Below are positions 1-59,903 of a stretch of DNA of 64,000 bases, piece after piece. The position numbers and the translations under genes are program-made. Source of the DNA: a bacterium (GTDB lineage: Bacteria; Patescibacteriota; Minisyncoccia; Moranbacterales; UBA2206); contig JAKQLJ010000020.1 of NCBI GenBank assembly GCA_029567195.1, forward strand, positions 3,971-67,970, read 5' to 3'. The notes under the pieces were generated by a model. The model had not been told where the DNA came from, did no database searches, and saw nothing but the letters and a program-made list of their open reading frames with translations. The first letter of the stretch is position 1; each line of letters begins with the position of its first letter.

Positions 1-1096
1 CCTCTATTCCTAGACTCATTTCTGAGACTATCACCGGATTGTTTTTGCTCCAAGAAAGAGCGGCAGAGGATGAAGGCAAGGAATGTTTTTGATTGTTTTT
101 TATCAGATAATATTTTTGATCTTCATTGGTAACAAAAATCGTTCCGTCGGGATGGGGGCTGAAGATGGTGAATAACTTTTCTTTTTTATACATAGCCATT
201 TCATCTCCGGAGATTTTCCGGAGATCATCCCAAGAATATCCCATATTTTCAAAAGTAATGGAACTGTCGATGGGAAGCGTTTTTCCGTTTGATACGAGAA
301 AGGCGGAGTCGCCATAAGACACTAAAGATCCGTCGGCAAAACCCTCCGTGTCATCAGAAAGCGGATATTTTTTCAAAAAATCAGCTGTTTTTTCTATCGC
401 CTGATTGTCGGCGTAACTACTCAGATAGGCTTGGCTACTCACAAATTTTCTTAATATATCATCTTTTAAAATATAATATTCATTGTCAATTTTAAAAATG
501 GAATAATTAGGATAAGTGGAAATATCGGAAATTTCCTCTCCTTTCGGATTATATTTCAAATCTTCTGCGGTTGTTTCAATAAAATAATTTTTGTCAAATC
601 CCAGCGTTTCTAAGATTGAATCATTGCGAAATTTTTTCAATTTTCCGTCAGAAACCAAGTAATAATTTCCCTCACTTTTTACGGCCGTTCCGTCCCTAAA
701 GCCTACCGGTTCTCCTTCCGGATAAAAAAAGGCTTGATAGGATTTTCTGGCATTCAAAGAAGCTGAAACAAATTCTTCCGATTTTTTGCTTAGAATTATG
801 GAAACTCTTCCCGTAGAATAATTGCCGATAACAGAAGCATCGAATGTCAATGGTTTTGTTCCTTCTATCCTTCCTCTTTCGGGAAATAACCCTTCCGAGT
901 TTCTTATGTTTGCCAAGTTATTTTTAGTAGAGTTGGGGTTTAGAAAGGAAAATGTTAGGAATTGAGTCGGAAAGGCAATTATAATAAATAAATAGACAGC
1001 TAAAAAAAGAGCCAAAAGATAAACAGCCGTCTGGAACAATCGGTAATGTTTATAATTTTTTTCGTCTAATTCTATTTTTTTAGTGAGATCAAACAT
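1..1096 (-). CDS. Hypothetical membrane-anchored protein, partial (C-terminus beyond window start); N-terminal TM helix then ~340 aa extracytoplasmic region
   Basis: Manual minus-strand translation from ATG at 1094-1096 (MFDLTKKIELDEKNYKHYRLFQTAVYLLALFLAVYLFIIIAF...) shows no stop down to position 1. It is missing from the ORF track only because it runs off the window edge. Spot-checked codons around 300-360 and 990-1096. Confidence 0.45.
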   Translation of the reverse strand, partial: MFDLTKKIELDEKNYKHYRLFQTAVYLLALFLAVYLFIIIAFPTQFLTFSFLNPNSTKNNLANIRNSEGLFPERGRIEGTKPLTFDASVIGNYSTGRVSIILSKKSEEFVSASLNARKSYQAFFYPEGEPVGFRDGTAVKSEGNYYLVSDGKLKKFRNDSILETLGFDKNYFIETTAEDLKYNPKGEEISDISTYPNYSIFKIDNEYYILKDDILRKFVSSQAYLSSYADNQAIEKTADFLKKYPLSDDTEGFADGSLVSYGDSAFLVSNGKTLPIDSSITFENMGYSWDDLRKISGDEMAMYKKEKLFTIFSPHPDGTIFVTNEDQKYYLIKNNQKHSLPSSSAALSWSKNNPVIVSEMSLGIE

Positions 1097-1186: not shown

Positions 1187-1310
1187 TTGTCATTCCCGCG
1201 AAAGCCATGCCTACCGGCAGGCAGGCCTGCCTACCGGCAGGCAGGCGGGAATCCAGTCTTCATAATCTAGCTTGTTTTCTGGATTCCCAATCAAGTTGGG
1301 AATGACATCG
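1187..1310. repeat. Composite GC-rich palindromic element (intergenic copy): gtcattcccgcg + 2x tandem gcctaccggcaggcaggc + gggaatccag...ctggattcccaatcaagttgggaatgac
   Basis: The outer arms ttgtcattccc/gggaatgacatc are inverted repeats. An internal 20-bp unit is tandemly duplicated (1211-1230, 1231-1250). attcccaa-tcaag-ttgggaat is an 8-bp-stem hairpin. The same cores recur at 11805-11890, 55553-55640 and 56466-56523. Confidence 0.6.
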
Positions 1311-10219: not shown

Positions 10220-11203
10220 ATGATTAAATACAGTTTTATAATTCCTGTTAAGGAAATAAACGATTATATTCGGGAGTCCATCCCGAAGATTTTGGAAATT
10301 TCCCGGGAGGATTATGAAATAATAATATATCCTGACAATGAGAGCTCGGAATCATGGCCAAAGACAAGGCAAATTGCCAGCGGTCCGGGAGGGCCGGCGA
10401 TGAAAAGGGGGCTGGCAATGAGAGACGCGTTGGGGGATTTTTTGATTTTTATAGACGACGATGCTTTTCCCGAAAATGACATATTAGAAAAGTTAGACGG
10501 CGATTTTTCTGATGAGAAAATAGCGGCCGTCGGCGGTCCGGCAATTACGCCTAGGAATAACAGTTTTTTACAGAAAGTTTCCGGCGGGGTTTATCTGAGC
10601 AATTTAGGAGGAAATTTTCCGGAAAGATATTGCTCTATTGGCAAAAAGAGATTGGTCAGCGACTGGCCAACCGTAAATTTATCTGTTCGAAAAAAAGTTT
10701 TTTTGGAAGTAGGCGGTTTTGACTGCAGTTTTTGGCCGGGAGAGGATACAAAATTCTGTCTGGATATAATCAACAAGCTTGAAAAAAACAACAAGATTCT
10801 CTATGACCCGGAAATTATAGTTTGGCATCATCGAAGAGAGGGGCTGTTGAGGCATCTGAAACAAGTTGCCGGCTATGGTATTCATCGGGGTTTTTTCGCT
10901 AAAAAATATCCTAAAACCTCTTTTAAATTCCGATATTTTGTGCCAAGTTTTTTCTTTTTGTTTGTGGCTTTCGGCTGGCTGACAGTTTTTCTTTCTCCTT
11001 GGATTTTTAAACTTTATCTTTTTGGTTGGATTATATACGGTCTGGCTCTGGTTAAGGTTTTTTTTGATATCACTCGGCGCCAGAAAAATGTTTTAGTCGC
11101 TCTTTATTCTCTGGTTTATGTTTTTTTCACGCATTTGGTTTATGGAGCCAGATTTATACAAGGATTTTTTTATACTAAAGAATTAAAAAGTAAGCTTAGA
11201 TAA
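10220..11203 (+). CDS. Glycosyltransferase family 2 with C-terminal membrane anchor
   Basis: SFIIPVKEIN...IFIDDDAFPEND (DxD), then hydrophobic C-terminal helices. Confidence 0.7.
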   Translation: MIKYSFIIPVKEINDYIRESIPKILEISREDYEIIIYPDNESSESWPKTRQIASGPGGPAMKRGLAMRDALGDFLIFIDDDAFPENDILEKLDGDFSDEKIAAVGGPAITPRNNSFLQKVSGGVYLSNLGGNFPERYCSIGKKRLVSDWPTVNLSVRKKVFLEVGGFDCSFWPGEDTKFCLDIINKLEKNNKILYDPEIIVWHHRREGLLRHLKQVAGYGIHRGFFAKKYPKTSFKFRYFVPSFFFLFVAFGWLTVFLSPWIFKLYLFGWIIYGLALVKVFFDITRRQKNVLVALYSLVYVFFTHLVYGARFIQGFFYTKELKSKLR

Positions 11204-11206
11204 TTT

Positions 11207-12874
11207 ATGGCTGATCAAAATATGCCCGCCAAAGGCGGGTCCGCCTTTGGCGGAAAAATTTCAATTTCTTACCCTCCTTTGGAATCGGAAAAAGGCGTAG
11301 CGTGCCTGAGTCAAAATCGCCAGTTTCAATGGTTTGCCCATCCGACTTACATTTATCCGGTCATTCCGGCTTATGCCGCGTCGCTGTTGGCCAAAAACGG
11401 TTACCAGGTTTTTTGGGATGACGCTATTGCAGAGGAGCTGACTTATGATCAATGGAAAGAAAGAATAATGCGGGAAAAGCCGGACGTCATTGCTATAGAA
11501 ACCAAAACGCCGGTCGTAAAGATGCACTGGAGGATAATTGATGAGATAAAAAAAGAATTGTCGAATTTCTCCCTCCCCTCTGTCCCTTCGGGACATCTCC
11601 CCTCGGGCAAGGGAGAAGGCAATGGATGGAAGCCAATCTTTGTTTTGATGGGGGATCATGTGACAGCGCGCCCTGAAGAATCGCTCAAGAATTGCCAGGT
11701 AGATTATGTAATGGCTTCAGGTGACTACGATTTTATGCTTTTAAATCTAGCCAATCATTTGAGTAAAAACGAACCGCTTGAAGGAGGATTTTGGTATAGA
11801 AAAAGTTGTCATTCCCGGACCTACCTGCCAGAAAGGCAGGAAAGCGGTAATTTAGAGACTGGATCCCCAATCAAGTCGGGGATGACAAATTCAGAAATAA
11901 CTTCTGAATTTGTCAATTCCGGTCCATCAGACATTTCCAAACACAATCTTGACACATTGCCTATAATTGACCGGAAACTCACCAGATGGAAGATGTATGC
12001 TTACAAAAACGGCAATTTCAAATATACTCCCGGCGCTTATATGATGAGCGGCCGCGATTGCTGGTGGGGAAAATGCACTTTTTGTTCCTGGACAACTTTT
12101 TTTCCAGGGGAAAAATTTCGCACTATGTCTGCCCAAAAGGCGCTGGAAGAAGTGGAAAATCTTATCCGGCTGGGAGTGAAAGAAATTATGGAAGACAGCG
12201 GATCTTTGCCGATTGGAAAATGGCTCGATGATTTTTGCAAGGGAATGATTGATAGGGGTTACAATAAAAAAGTGACCATCAGTTGCAATATGCGGATTAC
12301 CGGCATAAAAAAATTGGAAACATGGAAAATGATGAAAAAGGCGGGTTTTAGATTCATCCTTTTCGGTCTGGAATCGGCCAATCAGGAAACTCTGGACAAA
12401 ATCAACAAAAATCTCAAAGTCGAAGAGATTGAGCCGGGACTCAAGATGTGTAAATCCGGAGGGCTCGAACCGCATATAACGGCGATGATCGGCTATCCTT
12501 GGGAAACAAAAGAAATGGCCCAAAAAACGATTGATTTGGCTAAAGATTTATTTAAAAAAGGTTATGTTGATACGCTCCAAGGAACGATTGTCATTCCTTA
12601 CCCCGGAACGCCGCTTTATAAGTATTGCGAAGAAAATAATATGCTTCTGACCCGCGATTATGATCATTTTGACCAGCGAGAAATGGTTATGAAATCATCC
12701 TTATCGTCAGCTGACGCCAAAGAGATGGTCCAGGGCCTTTATAAATCATTCATGAGCCCGCAGTTTATCTGGCGGAAAATAACTTCTATCAGAAGTTTTG
12801 CCGATATCAAGTTTCTTTTTATGGCCGGCTGGAAATGGCTGGGTAAGATGACGGATTTTCACTCTGTCAAATAA
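11207..12874 (+). CDS. Cobalamin (B12)-binding domain radical SAM protein carrying three in-frame GC-rich hairpin insertions
   Basis: N-terminal B12-binding-like region, radical SAM cluster motif DCWWGKCTFC (Cx4Cx2C) and TIM-barrel motifs (ILFGLESANQETLD). Paralogous to 21544-23076. Confidence 0.7.
   Translation: MADQNMPAKGGSAFGGKISISYPPLESEKGVACLSQNRQFQWFAHPTYIYPVIPAYAASLLAKNGYQVFWDDAIAEELTYDQWKERIMREKPDVIAIETKTPVVKMHWRIIDEIKKELSNFSLPSVPSGHLPSGKGEGNGWKPIFVLMGDHVTARPEESLKNCQVDYVMASGDYDFMLLNLANHLSKNEPLEGGFWYRKSCHSRTYLPERQESGNLETGSPIKSGMTNSEITSEFVNSGPSDISKHNLDTLPIIDRKLTRWKMYAYKNGNFKYTPGAYMMSGRDCWWGKCTFCSWTTFFPGEKFRTMSAQKALEEVENLIRLGVKEIMEDSGSLPIGKWLDDFCKGMIDRGYNKKVTISCNMRITGIKKLETWKMMKKAGFRFILFGLESANQETLDKINKNLKVEEIEPGLKMCKSGGLEPHITAMIGYPWETKEMAQKTIDLAKDLFKKGYVDTLQGTIVIPYPGTPLYKYCEENNMLLTRDYDHFDQREMVMKSSLSSADAKEMVQGLYKSFMSPQFIWRKITSIRSFADIKFLFMAGWKWLGKMTDFHSVK
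11223..11258. repeat. GC-rich near-perfect palindrome inside the 5' end of the radical SAM CDS (gcccgccaaaggcgggtccgcctttggcgg)
   Basis: cccgccaaaggcggg and ccgcctttggcgg are mutually complementary hairpins. They encode PAKGGSAFGG in-frame. Confidence 0.45.
11566..11625. repeat. In-frame GC-rich double hairpin (gtcccttcgggac / tctcccctcgggcaagggaga) within the radical SAM CDS
   Basis: Two stem-loops of 5-6 bp stems. The local GC is far above the surrounding coding sequence. It encodes LPSVPSGHLPSGKGEG. Confidence 0.4.
11805..11890. repeat. In-frame palindromic mobile-element copy (ttgtcattcccgg...ctggatccccaatcaagtcggggatgacaa) inside the radical SAM CDS
   Basis: It shares its termini (ttgtcattccc / ggggatgacaa) and the ccccaatcaagtcgggg hairpin with the 1187-1310 element. 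It translates as SCHSRTYLPERQESGNLETGSPIKSGMTNS without a stop. Confidence 0.6.
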
Positions 12875-12889
12875 GACTTGAGTTTGTTG

Positions 12890-12975
12890 ATCCATTCAAC
12901 ATTAATTCGTCATCCTGAATTTGATTCAGGATCTTCTAATAAACCTGCCTACCGGACAGGCAGGCAAGTTCAGCA
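12890..12975. terminator. Pair of hairpins between convergent genes (atcctgaat-ttg-attcaggat; cctgcc-taccggaca-ggcagg), putative bidirectional terminator
   Basis: A 9-bp and a 6-bp stem sit in the 125-bp gap between the stop of the + strand rSAM gene (12874) and the stop of the - strand TPR gene (13000). The second hairpin is related to the gcctaccggcaggcagg repeat core. Confidence 0.4.
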
Positions 12976-12999
12976 TAACAAAAAAATAAACAAGCCCTG

Positions 13000-14739
13000 T
13001 TACTTGGTAGAGTTTAACTTTGATTCAATTATCTTTAAATTTCCCTGAATATTCGGGTCGTTAGGATTTGTCTCCGCGGCTTTTTTTATCATCTCATATG
13101 ACTTTTGGTAATTGCCTCGTTCAAAATAAATGGCGGCTATGTTTTGATAACTTTGCCAAAGGTTGGGATTTATGGAAACGGCCTTTTGATAGCTTTCCAA
13201 CGCTTCCTCAATTTTTCCCATTTCTATATATGTATTGCCTAGATTATGGTAAGCATCGGCATAGTTGGGATTAATTTCAACGGCTTTTTTAAATTCTTCA
13301 ACCGCTTTTTCATAATTTTTCTGCCGGCCGTAAACGTCACCCAAATTATTATGAATATTTTGTCCGGAAGGAGAGGTTTTGGCGGTGGCAAGCCAAAGCG
13401 TATCTTCATTTTGCCAATCCATATTTCTGACGATGGTCCTTGCAGAAAGCAAAACAATTAGAATGGCAAAAACGGAATAAATAATATTTTTTCGGTTGCT
13501 GTATTTTTCAATCAGCCAGTTGAAAAACAGGGCGATAACCACAAATATTCCCAAGGATCCGAGGTAAACATATCGTTCGGCGACTATCCAGGAAATTTTG
13601 AAAGGTGTCAGGGTGGGGGAAAGAGTGATGATGAAAAAGGATAGCCAAAAGAAAACGGCTTTGTTTTTTTTCCAGCCGTAAAATATAAAAGCCAAAAACA
13701 GAAAAAATACCGACAAAAAAATAATATATTGGAAAGTGCTAAAAAACATCTCTGTTTGGTAAAGGCTTAATTTATCCGGCCAGAAAATTAATTTAAGATA
13801 AGAAGAAGTGGCTATTGGAATCTGGACAAATAGGTTGATTGACTGAGTGTCTTGATAGGTAGTTGATTCCAAATCGGCTATCCTGCCACCAATCCTGGCG
13901 GCATACATGATAATTAAAAGCAAACTCATCGAGAAGAAAGGGATAATTTTTTTCCAATTATCTTTCAATTTTCCGGCTGAAATTTCATAAACGAAAAGAA
14001 TAGCAAAAAAAACCATCGATTTTTCAGAAGACAAAAGGGAAAAGGCAAAGGCTAAAACCGCTACCCAGTATATTTTTTTGTTTTCTCCAGAAATAAGATA
14101 AAGGAAAAAGGAAAGAAGGAGAAAAAAGCCGTATTGGGAATACGGTCCGCCGGAGATCCATGTTATAGATTCTGCCATAATGGGATGAATGGCGAAAAGC
14201 AAAGAAGCAAAAATGGCAATCAATTTTTTATTGGTCAAGAAGTTTAGTATGGCAAAAGCCAAGAAAGACGATCCAAGATGAAAAGCGATATTGATTACAC
14301 GGAAAAAGGCTGGATTCAGACCGCCGAGGTGAAAAGAAAAAAAATATAAAATATTTCTCACCGATCCTACCAGTGATTGCGTTAGGGCAAAGGTAAAATC
14401 TCCCACTCGGGGATTTTTTGAAATAAGCTGAACGTCATCGGAAACAAAGCCATTATCAAAAGCATTAAAATAAACTAAAAAAATAGATAGGGATAACATA
14501 ATCAATATATTTATGTTATCAGCGATAAATTCTTTAAAATTGAAATTCGAATCTTTCAAAAAAGGCTTATTAGATGGGTTTTTGGCAATGAAGGAGTTGT
14601 ATTTTTCCTTAGGCCAATGAGTTTTGATGTAGCGGAGAACTTCACCTTCCGGCAAATCCAAGTCCCTCCTTATCTTTTCCAAAGAGAGTCTTTTGATATT
14701 TTTCTTGATGTAATGCTTTTGGCTGGATGTCAGAGACAT
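13000..14739 (-). CDS. Membrane protein with C-terminal TPR repeats (TMTC/PMT-like putative glycosyltransferase)
   Basis: An N-terminal cytoplasmic segment is followed by ~10 TM helices. The C-terminal ~140 aa contain three or four TPR units (AYHNLGNTYIEMGKIEEALESYQKAVSINPN...). Confidence 0.6.
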   Translation of the reverse strand: MSLTSSQKHYIKKNIKRLSLEKIRRDLDLPEGEVLRYIKTHWPKEKYNSFIAKNPSNKPFLKDSNFNFKEFIADNINILIMLSLSIFLVYFNAFDNGFVSDDVQLISKNPRVGDFTFALTQSLVGSVRNILYFFSFHLGGLNPAFFRVINIAFHLGSSFLAFAILNFLTNKKLIAIFASLLFAIHPIMAESITWISGGPYSQYGFFLLLSFFLYLISGENKKIYWVAVLAFAFSLLSSEKSMVFFAILFVYEISAGKLKDNWKKIIPFFSMSLLLIIMYAARIGGRIADLESTTYQDTQSINLFVQIPIATSSYLKLIFWPDKLSLYQTEMFFSTFQYIIFLSVFFLFLAFIFYGWKKNKAVFFWLSFFIITLSPTLTPFKISWIVAERYVYLGSLGIFVVIALFFNWLIEKYSNRKNIIYSVFAILIVLLSARTIVRNMDWQNEDTLWLATAKTSPSGQNIHNNLGDVYGRQKNYEKAVEEFKKAVEINPNYADAYHNLGNTYIEMGKIEEALESYQKAVSINPNLWQSYQNIAAIYFERGNYQKSYEMIKKAAETNPNDPNIQGNLKIIESKLNSTK

Positions 14740-21543: not shown

Positions 21544-23076
21544 ATGAAGATATTATTAGCCAATCCGCCTTATCGAGTTTCTCTTAATGAACGGGAGGAA
21601 CGATTTTTTATTCGTGCCGGATCACGTTGGCCTTTTTCTGTCACTAAGTGCAAAAACGAAAAATCTGAATATATGCCCTTTCCTTTTTATCTAGCTTACA
21701 CTGCCGCCATGCTGGAAAAGGAAAAGGAAAAGGAAGAGGGAATAGAGGTCTTTGTTGAAGATAGCATCGCTCTTAATGAAACGGAGGAAAAATTTCTGGA
21801 AAAAGTCAAAAAAATAAATCCGGATGTTGTTCTTTTTGAAACTTCGACCAACACCATTCGTCATGACATTGGGTTGGCCAAAAAAATCAAGGAGTTTAAT
21901 GGTAATGCCAAGATAGTTATGGCCGGTTTTCATGTAACAGCGCTTGCCAGGGAAACTTTTGATATTTCCGGCCAGGCTATTGATTTCCTGCTGCTTTCTG
22001 AATACGAATTCAATTTTTTAGAGCTTCTAAGAACTTTGAAGAGGGGCGGAGAATGCTCTGGTCTTGAAGGAATTGCTTTTAAAAAAGGGGATGAAATAAT
22101 AATCAATCCGGTAAAATCGCTTCTTGATATTTCCAAATTACCTTACCCTGCCAGACATTTTTTTCCTTCTAACGGAAACAACGATCTAAGTGTTTATTGG
22201 GACGGATTTTGCCAGACAAAGCCGGCAATTCAAATGCATGCTTCCCGCGGTTGTCCTTTTCGTTGTAATTTTTGCGTCTGGAATCAGATAATGTATCGGA
22301 ATGAAAAATACCGCCCTTTCCCGGTAAATTATATTTGCGACGAAATCGAATCAGTCATTAAAGAGTATGGAGCTCGGGAAATATATTTTGACGATGATAC
22401 CTTCACTGGAAACAAAGAACATGTTTTAGATTTTTGCCGGGAGATGATAAAAAGAGGCCTTCATAAAAAAGTTTTCTGGTCGGCTATGGCTGATTTTATG
22501 ATAACGGACGAAGAGATGATAAGGACCATGAAAAAATCCGGCTGCATCGGTTTGAAATTTGGAGTGGAAAGCGGAAATAAGGATATATTAAATCATATTG
22601 GAAAGCCAATTAATTTTAATAAATTAAAAATCAATACTAGTCTTTGCGCCAAGCTGCGCATCAAGACTCATGGCACCTTTACTTTCGGCCTTTCCAGGGA
22701 AACTAGGAAAACCATGGCCGAAACTTTAAATCTTGCCAAATCTATAGATTGTGATAGTGTTCAGTTTAGTATAACCACTCCTTTTCCGGGAACAAGATAT
22801 TATGAGGAATTGAAAAAAGAAGGAAGACTTTTGTCGGAAAAATGGGAAGATTTTGACGGCAACAATAATTGTGTTGTCAAATTCGATGATTTTAACAGTG
22901 AATTCATAGTTGATTTTTATAAAAAAGCCACTGGCCGGTGGTTGAGACACAAATTAAAGCAGCCTCGATGGTTTTGGCGGCAGCTTTATTATCTTAACCG
23001 TTCCCGGTCATGGCAGGGCAACAGTTTTATTTTTAAGCGAATGAGGAGGGCGCTGATTTTGGTTTTAAGCAGATAA
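21544..23076 (+). CDS. Cobalamin (B12)-binding domain radical SAM protein
   Basis: MKILLANPPYR N-terminus, canonical cluster motif SRGCPFRCNFCVW (Cx3Cx2C) and GVESGNKDILNHIGK. Paralog of 11207-12874. Confidence 0.75.
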   Translation: MKILLANPPYRVSLNEREERFFIRAGSRWPFSVTKCKNEKSEYMPFPFYLAYTAAMLEKEKEKEEGIEVFVEDSIALNETEEKFLEKVKKINPDVVLFETSTNTIRHDIGLAKKIKEFNGNAKIVMAGFHVTALARETFDISGQAIDFLLLSEYEFNFLELLRTLKRGGECSGLEGIAFKKGDEIIINPVKSLLDISKLPYPARHFFPSNGNNDLSVYWDGFCQTKPAIQMHASRGCPFRCNFCVWNQIMYRNEKYRPFPVNYICDEIESVIKEYGAREIYFDDDTFTGNKEHVLDFCREMIKRGLHKKVFWSAMADFMITDEEMIRTMKKSGCIGLKFGVESGNKDILNHIGKPINFNKLKINTSLCAKLRIKTHGTFTFGLSRETRKTMAETLNLAKSIDCDSVQFSITTPFPGTRYYEELKKEGRLLSEKWEDFDGNNNCVVKFDDFNSEFIVDFYKKATGRWLRHKLKQPRWFWRQLYYLNRSRSWQGNSFIFKRMRRALILVLSR

Positions 23077-48231: not shown

Positions 48232-50076
48232 TTGCCAAATGGCTTAATAATGATTAAAATAAAGAAAGATACGCATCCTCATTATAAACCAAACAACATG
48301 AAAAATAAAGTCCTGGTGATGTTTAAAAATAAGTATTTTCTGGTCTTTCTGGCAATTATGTTTTTGGGTATTTTCTTGAGAGCCTACCATTTTTCCGACT
48401 GGCTTCATTTCGAATTGGATCAGGCGCGGGACGCTAAAATTACCGATTTGGCTTACCGGGAAGGAGTGGAAAATCTGCCGCTTTTGGGACCGAAAGCGGC
48501 TGGCACTTTTTTGCGGCTAGGACCGGTTTTCTATTATTTTAATTATCTGACTGTTGTTATTTTTGGTAATAATCCGGCTGGAAATGCTGCCAGTTCGCTT
48601 ATTTTTGGCGTTTTATCTATTGTCGTTTTTTATTTTTTAATGAAACGATATTTTGGGGAGAAGATATCCTTGCTTTTAGCGCTTCTTTTTTCTTCTTCCA
48701 TTTTTCTGGTTGTCTACTCGCGTTTTGCCTGGAATCCTAATCCGATTCCTTTTTTCTCTCTTTTGCTTTTTCTTTCTCTTCTCAAGGTGACCGATAAAAA
48801 TGAAAAAAGAAGGGGGGTTTGGCTGGTAGTTTCCGGATTTTCCCTGGCCTGTGTCACGCATATGCATTTTTTGGCTTTTGTTTCCATGCCGGTTATAACC
48901 GCGCTATTTTTGCTTATAAAGTGGCCGAAAATAGCCTGGAAATATTGGCTAATGAGCCTTATGGTGATATTTCTTCTTTATCTTCCGCCAATAATCAACG
49001 ATATCGCCACCGGCGGAGATAATTACGGCCAGTTTTTCAAGGTGGCCGAAGGAAAATCAAATAAAGATGATCACAATTTGCCGGAAAAAGTAATCAAGAA
49101 TTATAAAGAAAATTCTCTCGGATATTTTCTGATTCTGACCGGCCAGGGGCGAACAGAATTGCCAAAAGTGGAAATAAAAAACGAAGTCAATTTGACTTGC
49201 GATCCGAATTGTATGACAAAAGTAAATCTGGGCATGGTGGCGCTGGTTGTTTTTACTGTAGGATTGGGATTGATGATTTTTTATTTCTGGAAAGGGCGAA
49301 AAAATGAAAATAATGATTTTTTGACGCTTTCAGTTTTATGGTTTGCTGTTATTTTCGGCCTTTATACCCTGATTGCTTTTGACATTTCCCCGCGTTTTTG
49401 GCTGGCAGTTTCCGGCTTGCCCTTTATTTTTCTCGGGCTGTTTTTGAAAAGCCTGGAAGATTATTCCCGATTAAACAAGAATCTTATAAATATTTTAGTA
49501 TTCCTTCTGGTGGGAGTCTTGGTGTTTTTTAATCTTTGGGAAGTTAAAAAAAGATTTTGGCAGTATGCCAATGCCCATCAAGAAAGCTTTGCCATTGAAA
49601 CGGATAAAATTTTAAAAGAAAGAACCCGCGTGACTTTGGAACAGCAGTATTTGATTATTGATTATATCGTTGACTTTTATGAAAAAAACAAATATCCGGT
49701 TTATCTTAACAGTGATCCCCAGTTTCGCCGTTCTTTTGTTTTTCATCTGAAAAATAAATCAATTCCCAATGATGATTGGCGAAATGCGGTTATTGGCGGA
49801 AAAGTTTATGCTGAAGGCAACTATTTTCTGGTTTATCCCACGCTTTCTAGCTGGACAGGCGACGTTCAAAAATATGAAAATAATTACCGGTTGATTGATA
49901 AAAAGGAATTTGGAACATTGACCGTTTTTCATCTGGAACCGCTTCCCGGAGCGATTAATTCCCAAAGGCAGGAATTTGAAGAAGATGGAAAAAATAGTAG
50001 CGCACCCGGTGTGCCGGTTCGTTATCAGTGGGATGAAATATTCAATGACGACAGTGAAACCGAAGAAGAAAATTAA
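48232..50076 (+). CDS. GT-C membrane glycosyltransferase, ArnT/PMT-like (paralog of 42366-43952)
   Basis: FLRAYHFSDWLHFELDQARDA...LGPKAAGTFLRLGPVFYY. The likely true start is downstream (MKNKVLVMF, ~48298). Confidence 0.6.
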   Translation: MPNGLIMIKIKKDTHPHYKPNNMKNKVLVMFKNKYFLVFLAIMFLGIFLRAYHFSDWLHFELDQARDAKITDLAYREGVENLPLLGPKAAGTFLRLGPVFYYFNYLTVVIFGNNPAGNAASSLIFGVLSIVVFYFLMKRYFGEKISLLLALLFSSSIFLVVYSRFAWNPNPIPFFSLLLFLSLLKVTDKNEKRRGVWLVVSGFSLACVTHMHFLAFVSMPVITALFLLIKWPKIAWKYWLMSLMVIFLLYLPPIINDIATGGDNYGQFFKVAEGKSNKDDHNLPEKVIKNYKENSLGYFLILTGQGRTELPKVEIKNEVNLTCDPNCMTKVNLGMVALVVFTVGLGLMIFYFWKGRKNENNDFLTLSVLWFAVIFGLYTLIAFDISPRFWLAVSGLPFIFLGLFLKSLEDYSRLNKNLINILVFLLVGVLVFFNLWEVKKRFWQYANAHQESFAIETDKILKERTRVTLEQQYLIIDYIVDFYEKNKYPVYLNSDPQFRRSFVFHLKNKSIPNDDWRNAVIGGKVYAEGNYFLVYPTLSSWTGDVQKYENNYRLIDKKEFGTLTVFHLEPLPGAINSQRQEFEEDGKNSSAPGVPVRYQWDEIFNDDSETEEEN

Positions 50077-54696: not shown

Positions 54697-56271
54697 TTAT
54701 TTATTTTTTTTAAATCCAAAACTTCGGGCTAAAAACTGCAAATCTTCTTTTTTTATCTCTCTTAAAGTATATAAAATAATAAGGTAAAAGACAAACAGAA
54801 TTACGGACCAGGGAATGAAAATCAAGCTTCCTTTGGAAAAAAAGAAGGAAACTGCGTAGACAACAAGTCCGGCCGAAGATATTTTCAAAAAACTTTTCAG
54901 TTTTATTTTCACGCCGAAATCTCTCCAGACGTAATAGAGCATAAAAAAGGTGACGACGGCCGAAGCGATAGAAGTGGCGATGGCCGATCCCATAATGCCG
55001 TATTTTTTTATTAAAAAATAATTCAAAATGGTGTTGACAGCCAAGCCAAAAATGGAAAGAATCATGGGGATTTTAACTTTTCCGGCGCCGCTCATAACAA
55101 AGCAAAAAACATAATAAATCGTTAAAAAGCCGACACCCCAGACCAAAACGGACATTGGAGCGGCGGCATCAATATAGCGGCTGGAATAAAAAAGCTTGAT
55201 TATTGGCGCGGAAAAAACGCTCATAAGGATGACAGACGGAACAAGAAGAACAAGCATAAGTCGTAGTGTTTGATTGACGATTTCGCCGGCTTTGGTATGA
55301 TTTTTTTCCGCTGTCGTTTTGGAAATAACAGGAAGAAGCACGACAGTCAGAGCGTAAAAAATATAATAAGGAATGCGGCCGATGGTAAGTGCGGCATTGT
55401 ATATGCCGGTCAGATAATCATCTTTCAAAATGCCTTTTACCAGATATAAATCAATGCTGATCAGAAGTTCGTAAGCCAAAAAGAAGATGACAATTTGCCA
55501 GGCATAGTTGACTAACTTCTTCCAGTCAAATGTTATGTCATCGGGCATCTTGTTGTCATTCCCGCGAAGGCGGGAATCTAGCATGGAAATTTTAGCTATC
55601 TCATTGGATGTCGGATCAAGTCCGGGATGACAATTTTCTAATTCTATTTCCTTTGCTTTGATTTTCGGACTTATCCGGATTTTATCGATGGCATAACCGA
55701 TAAAGAACAAAATTCCGGGAGCCATAATATATCCAACTATGGAACCTTTCAACTTGAAATAATAGGCCAAGGCAATGATGAATATCAATCGTAAAACTGA
55801 GCGGGTAATTTTCAGGATTGATTGGATGCCAAATTCGTGAAGTCCGGTGAAATAAGAAAAATAAAATGAAGCGGCGGCAAAGGCGGGAATTATAAGCGTG
55901 GAAATTTGGAAAAGGGGAGTGAGGGTTGGATCTCCAAGAATCTTGGAAATAAGCGGCGCAGACAAGAAAAAAAGGACAGTGATGGAGCCTATAATGATGC
56001 TTTGTAAAATAATAGCTTGCCGTTTTATTATCCCAACCATTCTCGGATTAGATTCAAAAATTTCACTGATATATTTGCTCATGGCGGTCGGAATGCCGTT
56101 GCCGATAAGAATGATGACCATGGTGGTAAGAGTTACCACTAACCCGTATCGTCCATAATCTGCCGGGCCCAAAATTCTTCCGACAACCGAGTGAATGACA
56201 AAACCGGAGATATTAAAGATTATCTCCGAAACAGTGACCCAAATTGTGGCCTTGGCGAAACTTTTAGACAT
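54697..56271 (-). CDS. Polysaccharide biosynthesis protein / flippase (Wzx, MOP superfamily) carrying an in-frame palindromic element
   Basis: 524 aa, 12-14 TM helices and a Wzx-like N-terminus (ATIWVTVSEIIFNISGFVIHSVVGRILGPADYGRYG). A hydrophilic insert ENCHPGLDPTSNEIAKISMLDSRLRGNDNKMP lies mid-protein. Confidence 0.7.
   Translation of the reverse strand: MSKSFAKATIWVTVSEIIFNISGFVIHSVVGRILGPADYGRYGLVVTLTTMVIILIGNGIPTAMSKYISEIFESNPRMVGIIKRQAIILQSIIIGSITVLFFLSAPLISKILGDPTLTPLFQISTLIIPAFAAASFYFSYFTGLHEFGIQSILKITRSVLRLIFIIALAYYFKLKGSIVGYIMAPGILFFIGYAIDKIRISPKIKAKEIELENCHPGLDPTSNEIAKISMLDSRLRGNDNKMPDDITFDWKKLVNYAWQIVIFFLAYELLISIDLYLVKGILKDDYLTGIYNAALTIGRIPYYIFYALTVVLLPVISKTTAEKNHTKAGEIVNQTLRLMLVLLVPSVILMSVFSAPIIKLFYSSRYIDAAAPMSVLVWGVGFLTIYYVFCFVMSGAGKVKIPMILSIFGLAVNTILNYFLIKKYGIMGSAIATSIASAVVTFFMLYYVWRDFGVKIKLKSFLKISSAGLVVYAVSFFFSKGSLIFIPWSVILFVFYLIILYTLREIKKEDLQFLARSFGFKKNK
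55553..55640. repeat. In-frame palindromic mobile-element copy within the flippase CDS (ttgtcattcccgcgaaggcgggaatc...gtccgggatgacaa)
   Basis: Same termini and internal cccgcg-aa-ggcggg hairpin as the 1187 and 11805 copies. Read on the minus strand it gives NCH...RLRGNDN with no stop. Confidence 0.55.
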
Positions 56272-56899
56272 TGTTTTTTATTTCTTCGAAAATTTGCATC
56301 TTGTCCCTGTTGCCGTCAATTATTTTCCAATTCCATTGGTCGGATTTCTTATCATAAATTTCCTTTTTCTTCCGAAGATATTCTATGCCCTGTTCAGGTT
56401 TTCTTTCGCGTTGCATGATTTGTTCGGGAGAGGCTTGGAGGTAAATCGCTATATCGGGACGTATAATTTTGTCATTTCCGCCAAAGCCATGCTTACCGGC
56501 AGGCAGGCGGTAATGACAACTTAAGAATTCTATATTTATTATGCTATCATAAAAATAACGGTCGCTGAGAATATAGTCATAACCGGAATTACGTAATTTA
56601 TTGCGTAATTTTTCAAATCTCCAGATATCGATTTTTAAAAATATTTTTCTCAGTTGAATTTGCATCCAGTTGGCCTTGGTGACGCTTTTTTCTTCGCTGT
56701 TTTTAATATTGCATTTTCCGGTCAACCGGCAAATCAGGCAATATTTATTTTTAAAATTGGCCAGCTTTTTAGCCGTCCCGTGCTGGATGGCATGGAAATA
56801 AAAAACCTTCTTGCCTTGCTGTTCAAGATAGTTTTTGAGCAGTTCTATTTGGGTTGATTTTCCACTGCCATCAAGGCCTGAGATAGTAATAATTTTCAT
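56264..56899 (-). CDS. tmk: Thymidylate kinase-like P-loop kinase carrying an in-frame palindromic element
   Basis: P-loop GLDGSGKSTQ, a DRYFYDSII (DRY..S) motif and a PDIAIYLQASPEQIMQRERKPEQ lid region. A 19-aa insert SCHYRLPAGKHGFGGNDKI lies between the two. Confidence 0.6.
   Translation of the reverse strand: MKIITISGLDGSGKSTQIELLKNYLEQQGKKVFYFHAIQHGTAKKLANFKNKYCLICRLTGKCNIKNSEEKSVTKANWMQIQLRKIFLKIDIWRFEKLRNKLRNSGYDYILSDRYFYDSIINIEFLSCHYRLPAGKHGFGGNDKIIRPDIAIYLQASPEQIMQRERKPEQGIEYLRKKKEIYDKKSDQWNWKIIDGNRDKMQIFEEIKNNV
56466..56523. repeat. In-frame palindromic mobile-element copy within tmk (ttgtcatttccgcc-aaagccatgcttaccggcaggcaggc-ggtaatgacaa)
   Basis: 14-bp inverted arms. The core aaagccatgc(c/t)taccggcaggcaggc is identical to the 1201-1230 copy. 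It is 57 nt long, a multiple of 3. Confidence 0.6.
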
Positions 56900-56955: not shown

Positions 56956-57789
56956 TTATAACGGGCTTTTGATGTTTTGCAAATTATTATTGGCCACTTT
57001 CGTGTAAATCTGGGTTGTTTCCAGCTTGGCATGCCCTAAAAGCGTCTGGATATATCTTATATCAGTTCCACCTTCCAGTAAATGCGTGGCAAAAGAGTGG
57101 CGAAGAGAATGGCAAGAGGCGCATTTTTTTATGCCTGAATTTTTGAGCGCTTCAGCAAAAACCTTTTGTGCGGTTCGTTCCGTCAGTTTGCCTCCGCGAT
57201 CTGATTCAAAAACATAATTATCCGCGTTTTTATTTTTTACATATTTTCGCAGAACATTGATTATTTTTTCCGACAAAATAGTCGTTCTGTCTTTTGCGCC
57301 TTTAGCGCCGCGGATAAATAATAATTTACCGTCAAAATCAAAATTTTTCACTTTTACGCTCACAACTTCTGATACTCGCAATCCTGATGAATACATAAGT
57401 CCCATCATTAGTTTATGTTTGACGCTTAAAATAGTTCCCAGAATTTTCCTAATTTCCTCTTTTGTAAAAACTTCCGGTATTTTCTTGGGTTTTTTGGCGC
57501 GAGGAATATTGGCAAAAAACCGGCGGCGGAGTATTTTTTCAAAATAAAATCGGAGGGCGCTATAAGCGGTGTTTAGTGTTGAGGCGGATTTGCTGTCATC
57601 TACCAACTTTTCCAAATAATTCCGTAAATCCTGGGCGTTGATATTCCTGGGATTTTTATTTGCGAACTTTAAGGCGGCTGTTATATAATAAAGATAAGAT
57701 TCGACAGTTCTGGGACTAAAATGCCGCAGTTTCATCTCCTGTTTTAATTGATAAACCGGATCCTTGCTAGGGTAATAATTTCCATTCAT
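56956..57789 (-). CDS. Tyrosine site-specific recombinase (Xer-like, 277 aa), divergent from cassette array
   Basis: Catalytic residues are in order: SGLRVSEV (Arg), GAKGAKDR (Lys), HSLRHSFAT (HxxR), LLGHAKLETTQIYTKV (His and the Tyr nucleophile). Confidence 0.8.
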   Translation of the reverse strand: MNGNYYPSKDPVYQLKQEMKLRHFSPRTVESYLYYITAALKFANKNPRNINAQDLRNYLEKLVDDSKSASTLNTAYSALRFYFEKILRRRFFANIPRAKKPKKIPEVFTKEEIRKILGTILSVKHKLMMGLMYSSGLRVSEVVSVKVKNFDFDGKLLFIRGAKGAKDRTTILSEKIINVLRKYVKNKNADNYVFESDRGGKLTERTAQKVFAEALKNSGIKKCASCHSLRHSFATHLLEGGTDIRYIQTLLGHAKLETTQIYTKVANNNLQNIKSPL

Positions 57790-58994: not shown

Positions 58995-59178
58995 ATCAGA
59001 TAACACGGCACATGCGGTTCATCCCGCCCTTTCATTTTTATATCAAGGTATGGCGGGACTCTCCCAAATTGCGCTGACGATATGGCTAGCTTAGTGATAT
59101 AATCAAGTAAAGCGAAATTAACAAATTTAATCAATAATCCACGGCGCAACTTCGCATGTGCCGAAACGTTGAGCGAAA
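58995..59178 (+). other. attC-like imperfect palindrome 2 (agatAAC-a-cggcacatgcg...cgcatgtgccg-aaac-GTTgagcgaaat)
   Basis: 11-bp stem, internal 7-bp hairpin (tcccgcc...ggcggga). GTTGAGC fits GTTRRRY. Confidence 0.5.
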
Positions 59179-59767: not shown

Positions 59768-59903
59768 CGCCCAACATCGAGTATGGGGTAAAAATATTTA
59801 CCTTTTAGTAATTTAATAGATGAACGTAAAATATTTTTGACCCAAATTCTGTTTCGTTTCACTTCAACAGAACTTCCCATACTCGAAAACGTTAAACGAA
59901 ATT
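59768..59903 (+). other. attC-like imperfect palindrome 3 (gcccAAC-a-tcgagtatggg...cccatactcga-aaac-GTTaaacgaaat)
   Basis: 11-bp stem whose sequence differs from site 2 but keeps identical spacer geometry (1 nt / 4 nt). GTTAAAC fits GTTRRRY. Confidence 0.5.

What the first reader, a model, noticed from the sequence alone, without database searches (positions are those of the whole stretch)
11207..11890. One radical SAM gene carries three separate in-frame GC-rich hairpin insertions
Three elements lie in this gene: a near-perfect palindrome at 11223-11258, a double hairpin at 11566-11625 and the MITE-like element at 11805-11890. All three sit inside ORF 11207-12874 without breaking the frame, and each coincides with a hydrophilic, low-complexity peptide stretch (PAKGGSAFGG; LPSVPSGHLPSGKGEG; SCHSRTYLPERQESGNLETGSPIKSG). 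The paralog at 21544-23076 lacks all three. The gene may be tolerating insertions in linkers, or may be on the way to pseudogenisation. The unusual Cx4Cx2C cluster spacing adds to the doubt about function.
Basis: seen in the sequence. Interest (0 to 1): 0.6.

Follow-up and report, generated by a model that had tools for sequence, protein, structure and literature searches.

The report
Selfish hairpin repeats inside enzyme gene
A working radical-SAM enzyme gene of a tiny uncultured bacterium (Candidatus Moranbacteria) carries three unrelated short hairpin-forming repeat elements inserted in frame. They sit in floppy surface parts of the protein, which repeats in this phylum a phenomenon best known from Rickettsia.

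Summary
ORF 11207-12874 is an intact 555-aa B12-type radical SAM gene. It carries three extra GC-rich, hairpin-forming segments that most of 115 orthologs lack: 96 lack the first, 66 the second and 98 the third. All three keep the frame and fall on the only low-confidence parts of a good AlphaFold model (residues 1-13, 131-137, 210-231). The gene is not decaying: dN/dS is 0.05-0.07, and the Cx4Cx2C motif is invariant in all orthologs.

Each segment belongs to a dispersed repeat family:
- A: a 30-nt palindrome found at 119 or more genomic places, mostly Patescibacteria. It is usually read in one frame (SAKGGSAFGG; 61 : 9 : 6).
- B: a double hairpin also found on Rhizobiaceae replicons and in many metagenomes.
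- C: an 83-nt head-to-head dimer of dRS3/NTS-type ("CGTC-REP") hairpins. Its ends match the hairpins that flank small GIY-YIG (Ssn-like) nuclease genes in Moranbacteria. It carries a further nested hairpin.

In other orthologs the same loops hold other elements, and two more genes in the window carry in-frame copies. I read this as selfish palindromic repeats tolerated in permissive loops, as with Rickettsia RPEs. It is a new member of a known kind.

The parts
11207..12874 (+). Host gene: a B12-binding-domain (class B) radical SAM enzyme, 555 aa. The subfamily is uncharacterised and sits in a glycan-biosynthesis locus. The sequence is identical to a Candidatus Moranbacteria protein.
   Evidence: Pfam PF04055 at 2.8e-16, PF02310 weak. 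NCBIfam hits only far below cut-off, HpnJ and BchE. Fold matches MgmA, AprD4, OxsB and TsrM. 100% identical to P0001. Neighbours are glycosyltransferases, flippases and an epimerase, and synteny is conserved in orthologs.
11225..11254 (.). Family A: a 30-nt palindrome, a variant of the canonical TCCGCCAAAGGCGGATCCGCCTTTGGCGGA. It is inserted between the ancestral start codon and codon 2 and encodes PAKGGSAFGG. In-frame ATGs lie at 11207 and 11222.
11567..11619 (+). Family B: a double-hairpin element with core CTCTGTCCCTTCGGGACATCTCCCC at 11578-11602. It encodes FSLPSVPSGHLPSGKGEG (residues 121-138).
11806..11888 (+). Family C: an 83-nt head-to-head dimer of dRS3/NTS-type hairpins (MITE-like). 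Its terminal inverted repeats are TTGTCATTCCCG...CGGGGATGACAA. It encodes CHSR...SGMT and is open in only one of six frames, the one used.
11824..11840 (.). Family D: a small hairpin, CCTGCC-AGAAA-GGCAGG, nested in the loop of the left hairpin of element C. It accounts for the extra TYLPERQ relative to P0002 and P0003.
   Evidence: Related nested copies lie at 1206-1245, 56488-56507 and 12944-12964.
11883..11915 (.). AT-rich perfect 14-bp hairpin, TGACAAATTCAGAA-ATAAC-TTCTGAATTTGTCA. It overlaps the right end of element C and the native codons ..EFVN. The arms are identical in ortholog P0002 and the loop differs.
   Evidence: (z = -6.5).
12903..12977 (.). Another hairpin element in the spacer just downstream of the gene, with ends GTCATCCTGAA...TTCAGCAT. 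It carries a nested CCTGCCTACCGGACAGGCAGG (12944-12964).
   Evidence: Peptides of this type (CHPELDSGS...SGMT) fill site 3 in orthologs P0040, P0075 and P0083.
1187..1308 (.). Intergenic family C dimer with two tandem 20-nt family D hairpins nested in its left hairpin. No frame is open.
55553..55633 (-). Family C dimer, 81 nt, in frame inside the flippase-like ORF 54697-56271 (-). It is open only in the frame used. Its left hairpin matches the NTS consensus at 27 of 28 positions.
56469..56519 (-). Short family C/D composite, 51 nt, in frame inside the dTMP-kinase-like ORF 56264-56899 (-). It lies at a loop that carries other element-derived peptides in orthologs.

Best explanation
The three segments are copies of three unrelated families of short, GC-rich, hairpin-forming dispersed repeats (REP- or RPE-like selfish DNA). 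They landed in the coding sequence of a functional B12-type radical SAM gene and persist because they cost little.

Shown:
- Each is a presence/absence polymorphism among orthologs.
- Each has many copies elsewhere, in unrelated contexts.
- Each adds a whole number of codons with no stop.
- Each maps to the N-terminal tail or a disordered loop.
- The host gene is under strong purifying selection.

Inferred:
- Copies spread through a single-stranded hairpin intermediate. For family C the partner is probably the small GIY-YIG (Ssn-type) single-strand nuclease, whose gene is flanked by the same terminal hairpins in Moranbacteria. The enzymes for A and B are unknown.
- In this genome 92% of the window lies in long ORFs, so little intergenic space is available. 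Selection then keeps only copies that stay in frame, stay open and encode flexible hydrophilic peptides at permissive sites. Hence the same three sites are colonised again and again in different lineages.
- The inserts are translated as disordered loops and the enzyme works.
- At site 1 translation probably starts at the ATG at 11207, three nt after the upstream stop. That places the hairpin about 19 nt downstream, outside the initiation footprint.
For: Ortholog comparison. Of 115 orthologs, 96 start MK, 66 have the short form at site 2 and 98 the short form at site 3. The window protein is about 70 aa longer than the roughly 485-aa baseline. The nearest relatives of carriers lack the insert, except window/P0002 for C and P0098/P0111 for B.

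Structure. AF2 gives pLDDT 87 and pTM 0.88. The only segments below 50 are 1-13, 131-137 and 210-231.

Selection. dN/dS is 0.05-0.07. The Cys triad and core are invariant.

Family A. At least 119 loci were found in species-representative genomes, with unrelated flanks. 76 of 120 copies lie in stop-free frames of 150 aa or more. Their frame usage is 61 SAKGGSAFGG-type, 9 PPKADPPLAE-type and 6 FRQRRIRLWR-type, although all frames are open. A split copy occupies site 2 in ortholog P0110.

Family B. At least 119 metagenome loci and 151 Rhizobiaceae replicons.

Family C. Four copies in the window. Its termini match the hairpins flanking GIY-YIG genes in L097, L248 and L249; the rSAM right end is 32 of 33 nt identical to the L249 left end. 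It fits the NTS consensus, the ssDNA target of SsnA (PMC11893778). Coding copies are open only in the frame used and the intergenic copy in none.

Nucleotide conservation. Inserts at sites 1 and 2 are 85-97% identical between orthologs whose third codon positions are only 49-54% identical. They are therefore young or constrained as DNA.

Generality. In-frame copies occur in a flippase-like and a dTMP-kinase-like gene, and the latter has a hypervariable element-filled loop across orthologs.

Assembly. The identical 555-aa protein is recorded on 3 contigs and in five source databases.
Against: - No expression or protein data exist, so translation through the inserts and enzyme activity are inferred.
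- Synonymous sites are saturated (dS 1.4-2.5). dN/dS is therefore approximate and cannot isolate the window lineage.
- Element B folds no better than shuffled sequence.
- No consistent target-site duplication was found.
- No GIY-YIG or transposase gene turned up in the window, by a regex over all ORFs plus Pfam scans of 24 of about 49 genes. The mobilising machinery for this genome is therefore not shown.
- Ssn-mediated copying of hairpins has not been demonstrated experimentally anywhere.
- Repeated hits at exactly the same nucleotide positions could instead reflect one old insertion plus many precise losses, or recombination between lineages. The similar ATG-4 codons-ATG-palindrome layout in the window and P0017 hints at shared ancestry.
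Confidence: 0.84

Rival explanations
1. Exaptation. The hairpins were recruited for a function. Examples are a translation or mRNA-stability control element just after the start codon (site 1), intragenic attenuators or RNase sites, sites that limit recombination of incoming ssDNA as NTS/Ssn does in Neisseria, or peptides that serve as functional linkers.
For: Palindromes at sites 1 and 2 are far better conserved at the nucleotide level than synonymous sites. In six independent genes the family A hairpin starts 17-20 nt after the first ATG. The stems of element C and of the AT-rich hairpin are identical between the window and P0002 while the loops differ. NTS hairpins have a demonstrated role in Neisseria (PMC11893778).
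Against: Most orthologs do without each insert. The same loops hold unrelated elements in other lineages. Copies sit in unrelated genes at internal positions, 50 of 63. The near-identity of copies across phyla fits recent spread better than local function. Nothing reached E = 1 over 10900-13100 except one weak sRNA hit (E = 0.25, 24 bits against a gathering score of 105) in the downstream spacer.
Confidence: 0.1
2. Native hypervariable linkers. The segments are ordinary fast-evolving low-complexity loops that happen to be GC-rich and self-complementary, not insertions of mobile DNA.
For: The three sites are indel hot spots in the family with many different lengths. Element B is not more stable than shuffles.
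Against: The exact 25-30-nt cores recur at 119 or more unrelated loci each, where about 3e-4 chance matches are expected for A (my own estimate). Family C has four copies in the window and shares its ends with GIY-YIG units. GC content is 51-73% against 42% for the rest of the gene.
Confidence: 0.03
3. Incipient pseudogene. The gene has been hit three times because it is no longer needed and is decaying.
For: Three insertions in one gene. The B12-binding Pfam score falls below its cut-off in the window protein.
Against: The frame is intact. dN/dS of 0.05-0.07 equals that of the P0006/P0004 pair, which lacks most of the inserts. All invariant columns, including the Cys triad, are retained. The fold is confidently predicted and synteny is conserved. 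Other clearly essential-type genes carry inserts too.
Confidence: 0.02
4. Assembly or sequencing artefact. Palindromes were introduced by chimeric reads or mis-assembly of metagenomic data.
For: The source is a metagenome-assembled genome, and palindromes can arise from amplification chimeras.
Against: The identical protein is recorded on 3 contigs and in five source databases. The same elements sit at the same sites in orthologs from other samples with sequence variation. Frame preservation and frame bias are not expected of artefacts.
Confidence: 0.01

Closest known systems
Rickettsia palindromic elements (RPEs; Ogata et al. 2000, 2002; Claverie & Ogata 2003, as summarised in PMC10969869, PMC3733652 and PMC6649704)
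   Same: Dispersed palindromic repeats inserted in frame in unrelated, still-functional genes of a small AT-rich genome. The inserted peptides lie where the fold tolerates them. Several families coexist.
   Different: The elements here are shorter: 30, 53 and 83 nt, against the ~150 bp that the review read (PMC10969869) gives for RPEs. The host is a Patescibacteria lineage, not an alphaproteobacterium. One gene holds three families plus nested hairpins. Families A and B are shared across phyla at near identity. Direct sequence homology to RPE-1..10 was not tested, although RPE-6 and RPE-4 belong to the same CGTC-tagged class as dRS3 (PMC3733652).
CGTC-tagged REPs, Neisseria dRS3 / NTS and Ssn-related motifs with GIY-YIG single-strand nucleases (PMC3733652; PMC11893778)
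   Same: The family C hairpin (G)TCATTCCCGCGAAGGCGGGAATCTAG fits the NTS consensus CGTCATTCCCGCGMAVGCGGGAATCYRG. It is organised as a head-to-head dimer, as is typical of CGTC REPs. The same hairpins flank a roughly 100-aa GIY-YIG gene in related genomes.
   Different: The tag is TGTC, not CGTC. In N. meningitidis only 2% of NTS lie inside genes, whereas here 3 of 4 window copies are in frame inside genes. No ssn gene lies in the window. The phylum was not among those reported.
REP/BIME elements mobilised by RAYT (Y1 HUH) transposases, including intragenic REPs (PMC3733652)
   Same: Hairpins of 20-40 nt in many copies, sometimes nested or clustered, and occasionally inside ORFs at N- or C-termini.
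   Different: There is no GTAG tag. No RAYT turned up in the 24 of about 49 window genes scanned. Family A is a perfect symmetric palindrome open in all six frames and is mostly intragenic (76 of 120 copies in long frames).
Dispersed hairpin repeats of Rhizobiaceae replicons. The RIME / Sm-repeat name is from memory and was not checked.
   Same: The family B unit CCCCCTCTGTCCCTTCGGGACATCTCCCCC..GGGGGGAGAT matches 151 Sinorhizobium, Rhizobium, Shinella and related records at 80-98% identity, with several copies per replicon.
   Different: Of the 25 best rhizobial copies listed, 13 have no annotated gene under the match; for the other 12 the record carries no annotation. The window copy is in frame in a gene of a 38% GC genome from another phylum.
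Coding palindromes and GC-rich hairpin insertions in organelle genes (Nematomorpha mitochondria, PMC6649704; yeast GC clusters from memory)
   Same: Stable hairpins embedded in protein-coding sequence of AT-rich genomes, gained and lost between species.
   Different: The nematomorph repeats are long (up to 284 bp), gene-specific and not members of cross-genome families.

Membership tests
Protein-coding palindromic repeats (RPE-type phenomenon) | Member of a dispersed, multi-copy repeat family | tested here: met
   A has at least 119 genomic loci. B has at least 119 metagenome loci plus 151 plasmid records. C has 4 copies in the window.
Protein-coding palindromic repeats (RPE-type phenomenon) | Palindromic, hairpin-forming sequence | tested here: met
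   A has z = -3.1 and C z = -4.0. B has two visible hairpins but z = -0.09, so stability is inconclusive for B alone.
Protein-coding palindromic repeats (RPE-type phenomenon) | Inserted in frame in an ORF that stays intact and conserved | tested here: met
   The ORF is intact. Indels relative to orthologs are whole codons. dN/dS is 0.05-0.07.
Protein-coding palindromic repeats (RPE-type phenomenon) | The insert lies where the fold tolerates it (surface, loop or terminus) | tested here: met
   In the AF2 model the only regions with pLDDT below 50 are 1-13, 131-137 and 210-231, which are the inserts.
Protein-coding palindromic repeats (RPE-type phenomenon) | Sequence homology to RPE-1..10 of Rickettsia | not tested
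   No RPE sequences were available. The only link is indirect: CGTC-1/-4 in R. conorii equal RPE-6/-4, and CGTC-1 in Neisseria equals dRS3 (PMC3733652).
CGTC-REP / dRS3-NTS / Ssn-related motif | Hairpin fitting ATTCCC-N8-GGGAAT and the 28-nt NTS consensus | tested here: met
   Copy 55553 matches NTS at 27 of 28 positions. Copy 1187 and the rSAM copy carry the same arms, interrupted by nested hairpins. blastn finds the same hairpin in Neisseria at 16-17 places.
CGTC-REP / dRS3-NTS / Ssn-related motif | CGTC tetranucleotide tag at one end | tested here: not met
   All window copies and the Moranbacteria and Parcubacteria units start TGTC (TTGTCATTCCC).
CGTC-REP / dRS3-NTS / Ssn-related motif | The same hairpins flank a small GIY-YIG (ssn) gene in the host lineage | tested here: met
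   L097 (Parcubacteria), L248 and L249 (Moranbacteria) have a 100-105-aa PF01541 gene between inverted hairpins. No such gene lies in the window itself.
CGTC-REP / dRS3-NTS / Ssn-related motif | Sequence-specific cleavage of the hairpin as ssDNA by the nuclease | not testable with these tools
   This needs biochemistry with a Moranbacteria Ssn homolog such as P0245 or P0265.
Classical MITE | Terminal inverted repeats and small size (about 50-300 bp) | tested here: met
   Met for C: 83 nt with 12-13-nt TIRs. A (30 nt) and B (53 nt) are REP-sized rather than MITE-sized.
Classical MITE | Target-site duplication of fixed length | tested here: not met
   No TSD appears at the four window copies of C. 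For A the flanks are TTT/AAA, with only sporadic direct repeats of 10-12 nt.
Classical MITE | Deletion derivative of an IS that encodes a transposase with the same ends | tested here: not met
   The gene-bearing unit with the same ends encodes a GIY-YIG nuclease, not a known transposase.
REP/RAYT | GTAG tag and an associated RAYT (Y1) gene | tested here: not met
   No element carries a GTAG tag. No RAYT turned up among the 24 window proteins scanned. About half of the roughly 49 genes were not scanned.
Class B (B12-binding) radical SAM enzymes (host gene) | Radical SAM core with three cluster cysteines | tested here: met
   PF04055 at 2.8e-16. C285/C290/C293 are invariant. The spacing is Cx4Cx2C rather than the canonical Cx3Cx2C in every ortholog.
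Class B (B12-binding) radical SAM enzymes (host gene) | N-terminal cobalamin-binding Rossmann-like domain | tested here: inconclusive
   PF02310 scores only 20 bits against a 32.1 cut-off in the window protein, although it is recorded for most orthologs. The fold matches OxsB, TsrM, MgmA and AprD4. Cobalamin ligands were not examined.

The most novel reading that the evidence does not exclude
Family A is an undescribed kind of mobile DNA. It is a 30-nt perfect palindrome (TCCGCCAAAGGCGGATCCGCCTTTGGCGGA) that is open in all six frames. It lives mainly inside protein-coding genes, about 80% of the time in the one frame that gives a Gly/Ser/Ala-rich linker. It is shared at near identity among many Patescibacteria classes and also with Omnitrophota, Melainabacteria, Planctomycetia and others. 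That would imply ongoing horizontal spread by unknown machinery, perhaps a further Ssn-type nuclease and hairpin pair. More broadly, Patescibacteria proteins would be systematically remodelled at loops and N-termini by several such families, the Rickettsia phenomenon on a phylum-wide scale.
Probability: 0.4. Interest if true: 0.65.

Novelty: new member of a known kind. Interest (0 to 1): 0.45.

Why it matters
It shows that in-frame colonisation of working genes by selfish hairpin repeats also occurs in Patescibacteria. This had been regarded as a peculiarity of Rickettsia and a few other bacteria. Here three families sit in one enzyme, and the same loops are hit repeatedly across thousands of orthologs.

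That offers a large natural experiment on which protein sites tolerate insertions, and on how small, gene-dense genomes accommodate mobile DNA.

The match between the MITE ends and the hairpins that flank Ssn-type GIY-YIG nuclease genes gives a concrete, testable candidate for how "CGTC-type" repeats spread. A 2013 survey concluded that these repeats lacked a dedicated transposase.

There are also practical consequences:
- The inserts depress domain-model scores (the B12 domain falls below its cut-off).
- They inflate the apparent divergence of CPR proteins.
- They can mislead start-codon calls.

Tried and rejected
- Paralog comparison. At only 26% identity it is too distant to define indels, so 115 orthologs replaced it.
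- Rfam scan of 10900-13100 at E <= 1. It returned only a weak chance-level sRNA hit in the downstream spacer, so no known RNA family explains the hairpins.
- Viral contigs for family A: none, so there is no evidence for a phage vector.
- Plasmid collection for family A: one marginal hit only.
- Target-site duplications: no consistent TSD. The excess of direct repeats of 10 nt or more around family A comes from a few composite or low-complexity contexts.
- GIY-YIG, transposase or RAYT genes in the window (regex; Pfam on 24 ORFs). Only a XerC/D-like tyrosine recombinase at 56956-57789 turned up.
- Fold stability of element B: not distinguishable from shuffles.
- Full-text searches for the palindrome strings, their peptides and CPR MITEs: nothing relevant.
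- Ogata 2002 (PMC186582) is not held, so RPE consensus sequences could not be compared.
- An intein or intron reading was considered and dropped. The inserts are 10-32 codons with no splicing motifs. Frame bias and the frame-specific openness of family C copies argue that they are translated.
Full report
**Observation.** ORF 11207-12874 (+) is uninterrupted and encodes 555 aa.
- The first is the 30-nt unit 11225-11254, CCCGCCAAAGGCGGGTCCGCCTTTGGCGGA, with 12-bp perfect arms. It folds at -24.9 kcal/mol, z = -3.1, and its half-site occurs nowhere else in the window.
- The second, 11567-11619, shows two hairpins (GTCCC-TTC-GGGAC and TCTCCC...GGGAGA). It is no more stable than shuffles of its own C/G-rich composition (z = -0.09).
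- The third, 11806-11888, has terminal inverted repeats TTGTCATTCCCG / CGGGGATGACAA (z = -4.0). It has relatives at 1187-1308, 55553-55633 and 56469-56519.
- GC content is 73%, 64% and 51% for the three elements, against 42% for the rest of the gene and 37.6% for the window.
- Two further features were missed. A 17-nt hairpin (11824-11840) is nested in the third element. An AT-rich perfect 14-bp hairpin (11883-11915, z = -6.5) abuts its right end.

**Host gene.** The product is a radical SAM enzyme with an N-terminal B12-type domain.
- Pfam finds PF04055, and PF02310 only weakly.
- NCBIfam hits (HpnJ, BchE and others) are all far below their cut-offs.
- The predicted fold is closest to MgmA, AprD4, OxsB and TsrM.
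- The protein is 100% identical to a Candidatus Moranbacteria protein that is recorded on 3 contigs and in five source databases.
- The gene lies in a large glycan-biosynthesis locus of glycosyltransferases, flippases and an epimerase. Gene order is conserved in relatives.

**Are they insertions?** More than 6000 homologs exist, and the closest are typically 485-495 aa. I aligned 115 orthologs at 65-85% identity.
- 96 start directly with MK.
- 66 have a 7-residue connection at site 2.
- 98 have 13-14 residues at site 3.
- The window protein instead has MADQNMPAKGGSAFGG-K at site 1, a 29-residue connection at site 2 and a 45-residue connection at site 3.

DNA alignments place the site-1 unit between the ancestral ATG and its AAA second codon. 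In insert-free orthologs that start overlaps the upstream stop as TAATG. The other two are whole-codon blocks.

Carriers are scattered. For every insert type, the nearest relatives of a carrier lack it. The exceptions are window/P0002 (type C at site 3) and P0098/P0111 (type B at site 2).

The same sites hold different elements in other orthologs.
- Site 2: simple SPxKGEGG hairpins in eight lineages, and a split family A copy in P0110.
- Site 3: solo CHSREGGN hairpins, CHPELDSGS...SGMT elements and others.

The sites are therefore recurrent landing or retention spots.

**Is the gene alive?** An AlphaFold2 model built on the 115-sequence alignment is confident (mean pLDDT 87, pTM 0.88). Its only segments below pLDDT 50 are residues 1-13, 131-137 and 210-231. 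Insert 2 lies in a coil between helix 104-120 and strand 144-148. Insert 3 lies between strands 195-198 and 235-237.

Nei-Gojobori dN/dS between the window gene and six orthologs is 0.05-0.125, and 0.05-0.07 for the five closest. The value between P0006 (no inserts) and P0004 (only a simple site-2 hairpin) is 0.07. Synonymous sites are saturated, so these ratios are approximate.

The cluster cysteines C285, C290 and C293 (Cx4Cx2C) are invariant in all 115 orthologs. The unusual spacing is thus a family trait, not decay.

**Family A.** I scanned one genome per species with a 28-nt pattern.
- Most are Patescibacteria classes: Doudna-, Saccharibacteria, Azam-, Moran-, Magasanik-, Nomura-, Staskawicz-bacteria and others.
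- Other hits are Omnitrophota, Melainabacteria, Planctomycetia, Bdellovibrionales, Syntrophorhabdus and proteobacterial MAGs, some on contigs longer than 100 kb.
- I estimate about 3e-4 chance matches (my own arithmetic).
- The canonical unit is the perfect palindrome TCCGCCAAAGGCGGATCCGCCTTTGGCGGA, embedded in unrelated sequence and usually in a TTT...AAA context.
- All six frames are open.
- 76 of 120 copies lie in stop-free frames of 150 aa or more. Of these, 61 are read as SAKGGSAFGG-type, 9 as PPKADPPLAE-type and 6 as FRQRRIRLWR-type. The chi-square against equal use is about 76 by my calculation.
- Of 63 copies in the SAKGG frame, 8 are near N-termini, 5 near C-termini and 50 internal.
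- In five of those eight N-terminal cases, and in ortholog P0017, the hairpin stem begins 17-20 nt after the first in-frame ATG (my count from the sequences). The window has the same layout: TAA-ttt-ATG GCT GAT CAA AAT ATG CCCGCC....
- None was found in viral contigs and essentially none in plasmids of cultured bacteria.

**Family B.** The canonical unit is ACCCCCTCT-GTCCCTTCGGGAC-ATCTCCCC(loop)GGGGAGAT, and it is read in all six frames in different hosts. The GC-rich form matches 151 Rhizobiaceae replicons, several copies each.

Between the window and the 66%-identical ortholog P0098 the element is 85% identical in DNA, whereas third codon positions of the core gene are 49% identical. For family A the figures are 97% and 88% against 52-54%. 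The copies are therefore much younger than the genes, or constrained as nucleic acid.

**Family C.** The left hairpin (for example 55553: TTGTCATTCCCGCGAAGGCGGGAATCTAG) fits the 28-nt Neisseria Transformation Sequence CGTCATTCCCGCGMAVGCGGGAATCYRG at 27 of 28 positions.
- That sequence contains dRS3 and is the single-strand DNA target of the GIY-YIG nuclease SsnA (PMC11893778).
- blastn finds the same hairpin in Neisseria, Azospirillum, Photobacterium and Sphingopyxis.
- Di Nocera et al. classed dRS3 with the "CGTC-tagged REPs". These typically form head-to-head dimers and include Rickettsia RPE-6 and RPE-4. At that time they had no known transposase (PMC3733652).

The 83-nt element in the rSAM gene is such a head-to-head dimer.
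- In Parcubacteria locus L097 and in Moranbacteria loci L248 and L249, a 100-105-aa GIY-YIG gene (PF01541, 1.6e-14) sits between two inverted copies of the same hairpins.
- The right end of the rSAM copy is 32 of 33 nt identical to the L249 left end.
- The element therefore looks like that unit with the gene deleted.
- Close homologs of the nuclease (about 70% identity) occur in several phyla.
- No such gene lies in the 64-kb window.
- Coding copies of family C are open only in the frame actually used. The intergenic copy at 1187 is closed in all six. This argues that the coding copies are translated and selected.

**Generality.** In this window three of four family C copies are intragenic and in frame.
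- Besides the rSAM gene, these are a flippase-like ORF (81 nt) and a dTMP-kinase-like ORF (51 nt).
- In orthologs of the latter, the same loop carries a variety of other element-derived peptides.
- Long ORFs cover 92% of the window.

**Interpretation.** The best reading is that these are selfish REP/RPE-like hairpin repeats that entered a functional gene and are tolerated. What survives is filtered for whole-codon length, open frame, bland flexible peptide and permissive site.
- Shown: the polymorphism, the family membership, the disorder of the inserts, and the purifying selection.
- Inferred: translation through the inserts, enzyme activity, and the mobilisation route. For family C that route would be a single-strand hairpin intermediate handled by an Ssn-type nuclease. 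For A and B it is unknown.

The rival readings score much lower. Exaptation as regulatory hairpins is the only one with some support, from the nucleotide-level conservation and the regular spacing from start codons. The others are native variable linkers, pseudogenisation and artefact.

Whether the recurrent occupancy of identical positions reflects repeated insertion, loss, or recombination between lineages is unresolved.

**Novelty.** The phenomenon is known from Rickettsia, and sporadically for REPs inside genes (PMC10969869, PMC3733652, PMC6649704). I found nothing on it in Patescibacteria, nor on the family A palindrome, in the searchable library.

I file it as a new member of a known kind, with two leads that could be more:
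- the frame-biased, cross-phylum 30-nt coding palindrome;
- the identity between MITE ends and the hairpins that flank Ssn genes.

Noticed in passing
orthologs P0071, P0095, P0097, P0106: Some orthologs of the same radical SAM gene are about 950 aa and carry intein domains (PF14528 LAGLIDADG_3, PF14890 Intein_splicing). The gene family is therefore also a target for inteins.
   Followed up: no
window 11883-11915: AT-rich perfect 14-bp hairpin that overlaps the MITE right end and native codons (..EFVN). The arms are identical in ortholog P0002 despite saturated synonymous divergence, and the loop differs. It may be a quasi-palindrome 'corrected' by template switching, or part of the element.
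   Followed up: partly
window 1187-1308: Intergenic family C dimer whose left hairpin loop holds two tandem 20-nt hairpins (CCTGCCTACCGGCAGGCAGG). The same small hairpin is nested in the rSAM copy (11824-11840), in the copy at 56488-56507 and in the element at 12944-12964. Hairpin loops thus seem to be preferred landing sites for other hairpins.
   Followed up: partly
window 12903-12977: A further element type, with ends GTCATCCTGAA...TTCAGCAT, lies in the spacer just downstream of the rSAM stop codon. Peptides of this type (CHPELDSGS...SGMT) fill site 3 of orthologs P0040, P0075 and P0083.
   Followed up: partly
window 55553-55633 and 56469-56519: Family C copies lie in frame inside a flippase-like ORF (54697-56271, -) and a dTMP-kinase-like ORF (56264-56899, -). 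Orthologs of the kinase-like gene have a hypervariable loop filled with different element-derived peptides.
   Followed up: yes
window 48477-48500: GC-rich perfect 8-bp hairpin GCCGCTTTTGGGACCGAAAGCGGC, in frame (LPLLGPKAA) in a PMT_2-like glycosyltransferase ORF (48232-50076).
   Followed up: no
loci L008, L029, L031, L055, L073, L085, L097, L102, L247: Family A copies near N-termini always follow an in-frame ATG by 4-10 codons. In six genes the hairpin starts 17-20 nt after that ATG, and in several a second ATG abuts the palindrome. This suggests a minimum spacing from the initiation site, or an element-borne start codon (TTGT/ATGT subfamily).
   Followed up: partly
loci L036, L043, L070, L082, L101, L110, L123 (one Omnitrophota MAG): The family A palindrome sits in the middle of a larger MITE with family-C-like ends (GTCATGCCAGCGTAGGCTGGCATC ... 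GATTCCGGCCTTCGCCGGAATGACAC), repeated on many contigs of the same genome.
   Followed up: no
loci L097, L248, L249; proteins P0241-P0360: Small GIY-YIG (Ssn-like) proteins are about 70% identical across Patescibacteria, Ignavibacteriales, Nitrospirae, Anaerolineae and Hydrogenedentota. That is unusually conserved for such distant hosts and is consistent with horizontal movement of the hairpin-gene-hairpin unit.
   Followed up: partly
loci L127, L148, L149, L158, L177, L178 (human-gut and other metagenomes): The family B core lies at the same place in what looks like one conserved locus. In four of these copies it lies in a stop-free frame of at least 150 aa that reads TGARPLCPFGTSPHPVGSHPFK. 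This is an in-frame copy in a gut organism unrelated to Patescibacteria.
   Followed up: no
window 59146-59177, 59869-59900, 60427-60458: A 32-nt direct repeat (GCAACTTCGCATGTGCCGAAACGTTGAGCGAA; two copies 94% identical) lies among small NUDIX and cupin genes. It may be a shared regulatory or promoter motif.
   Followed up: no
window 63017-63952 (-): The RtcB-like ORF matches only profile positions 146-424 of 426. The N-terminal third is not accounted for within the 48 nt left before the window end.
   Followed up: no
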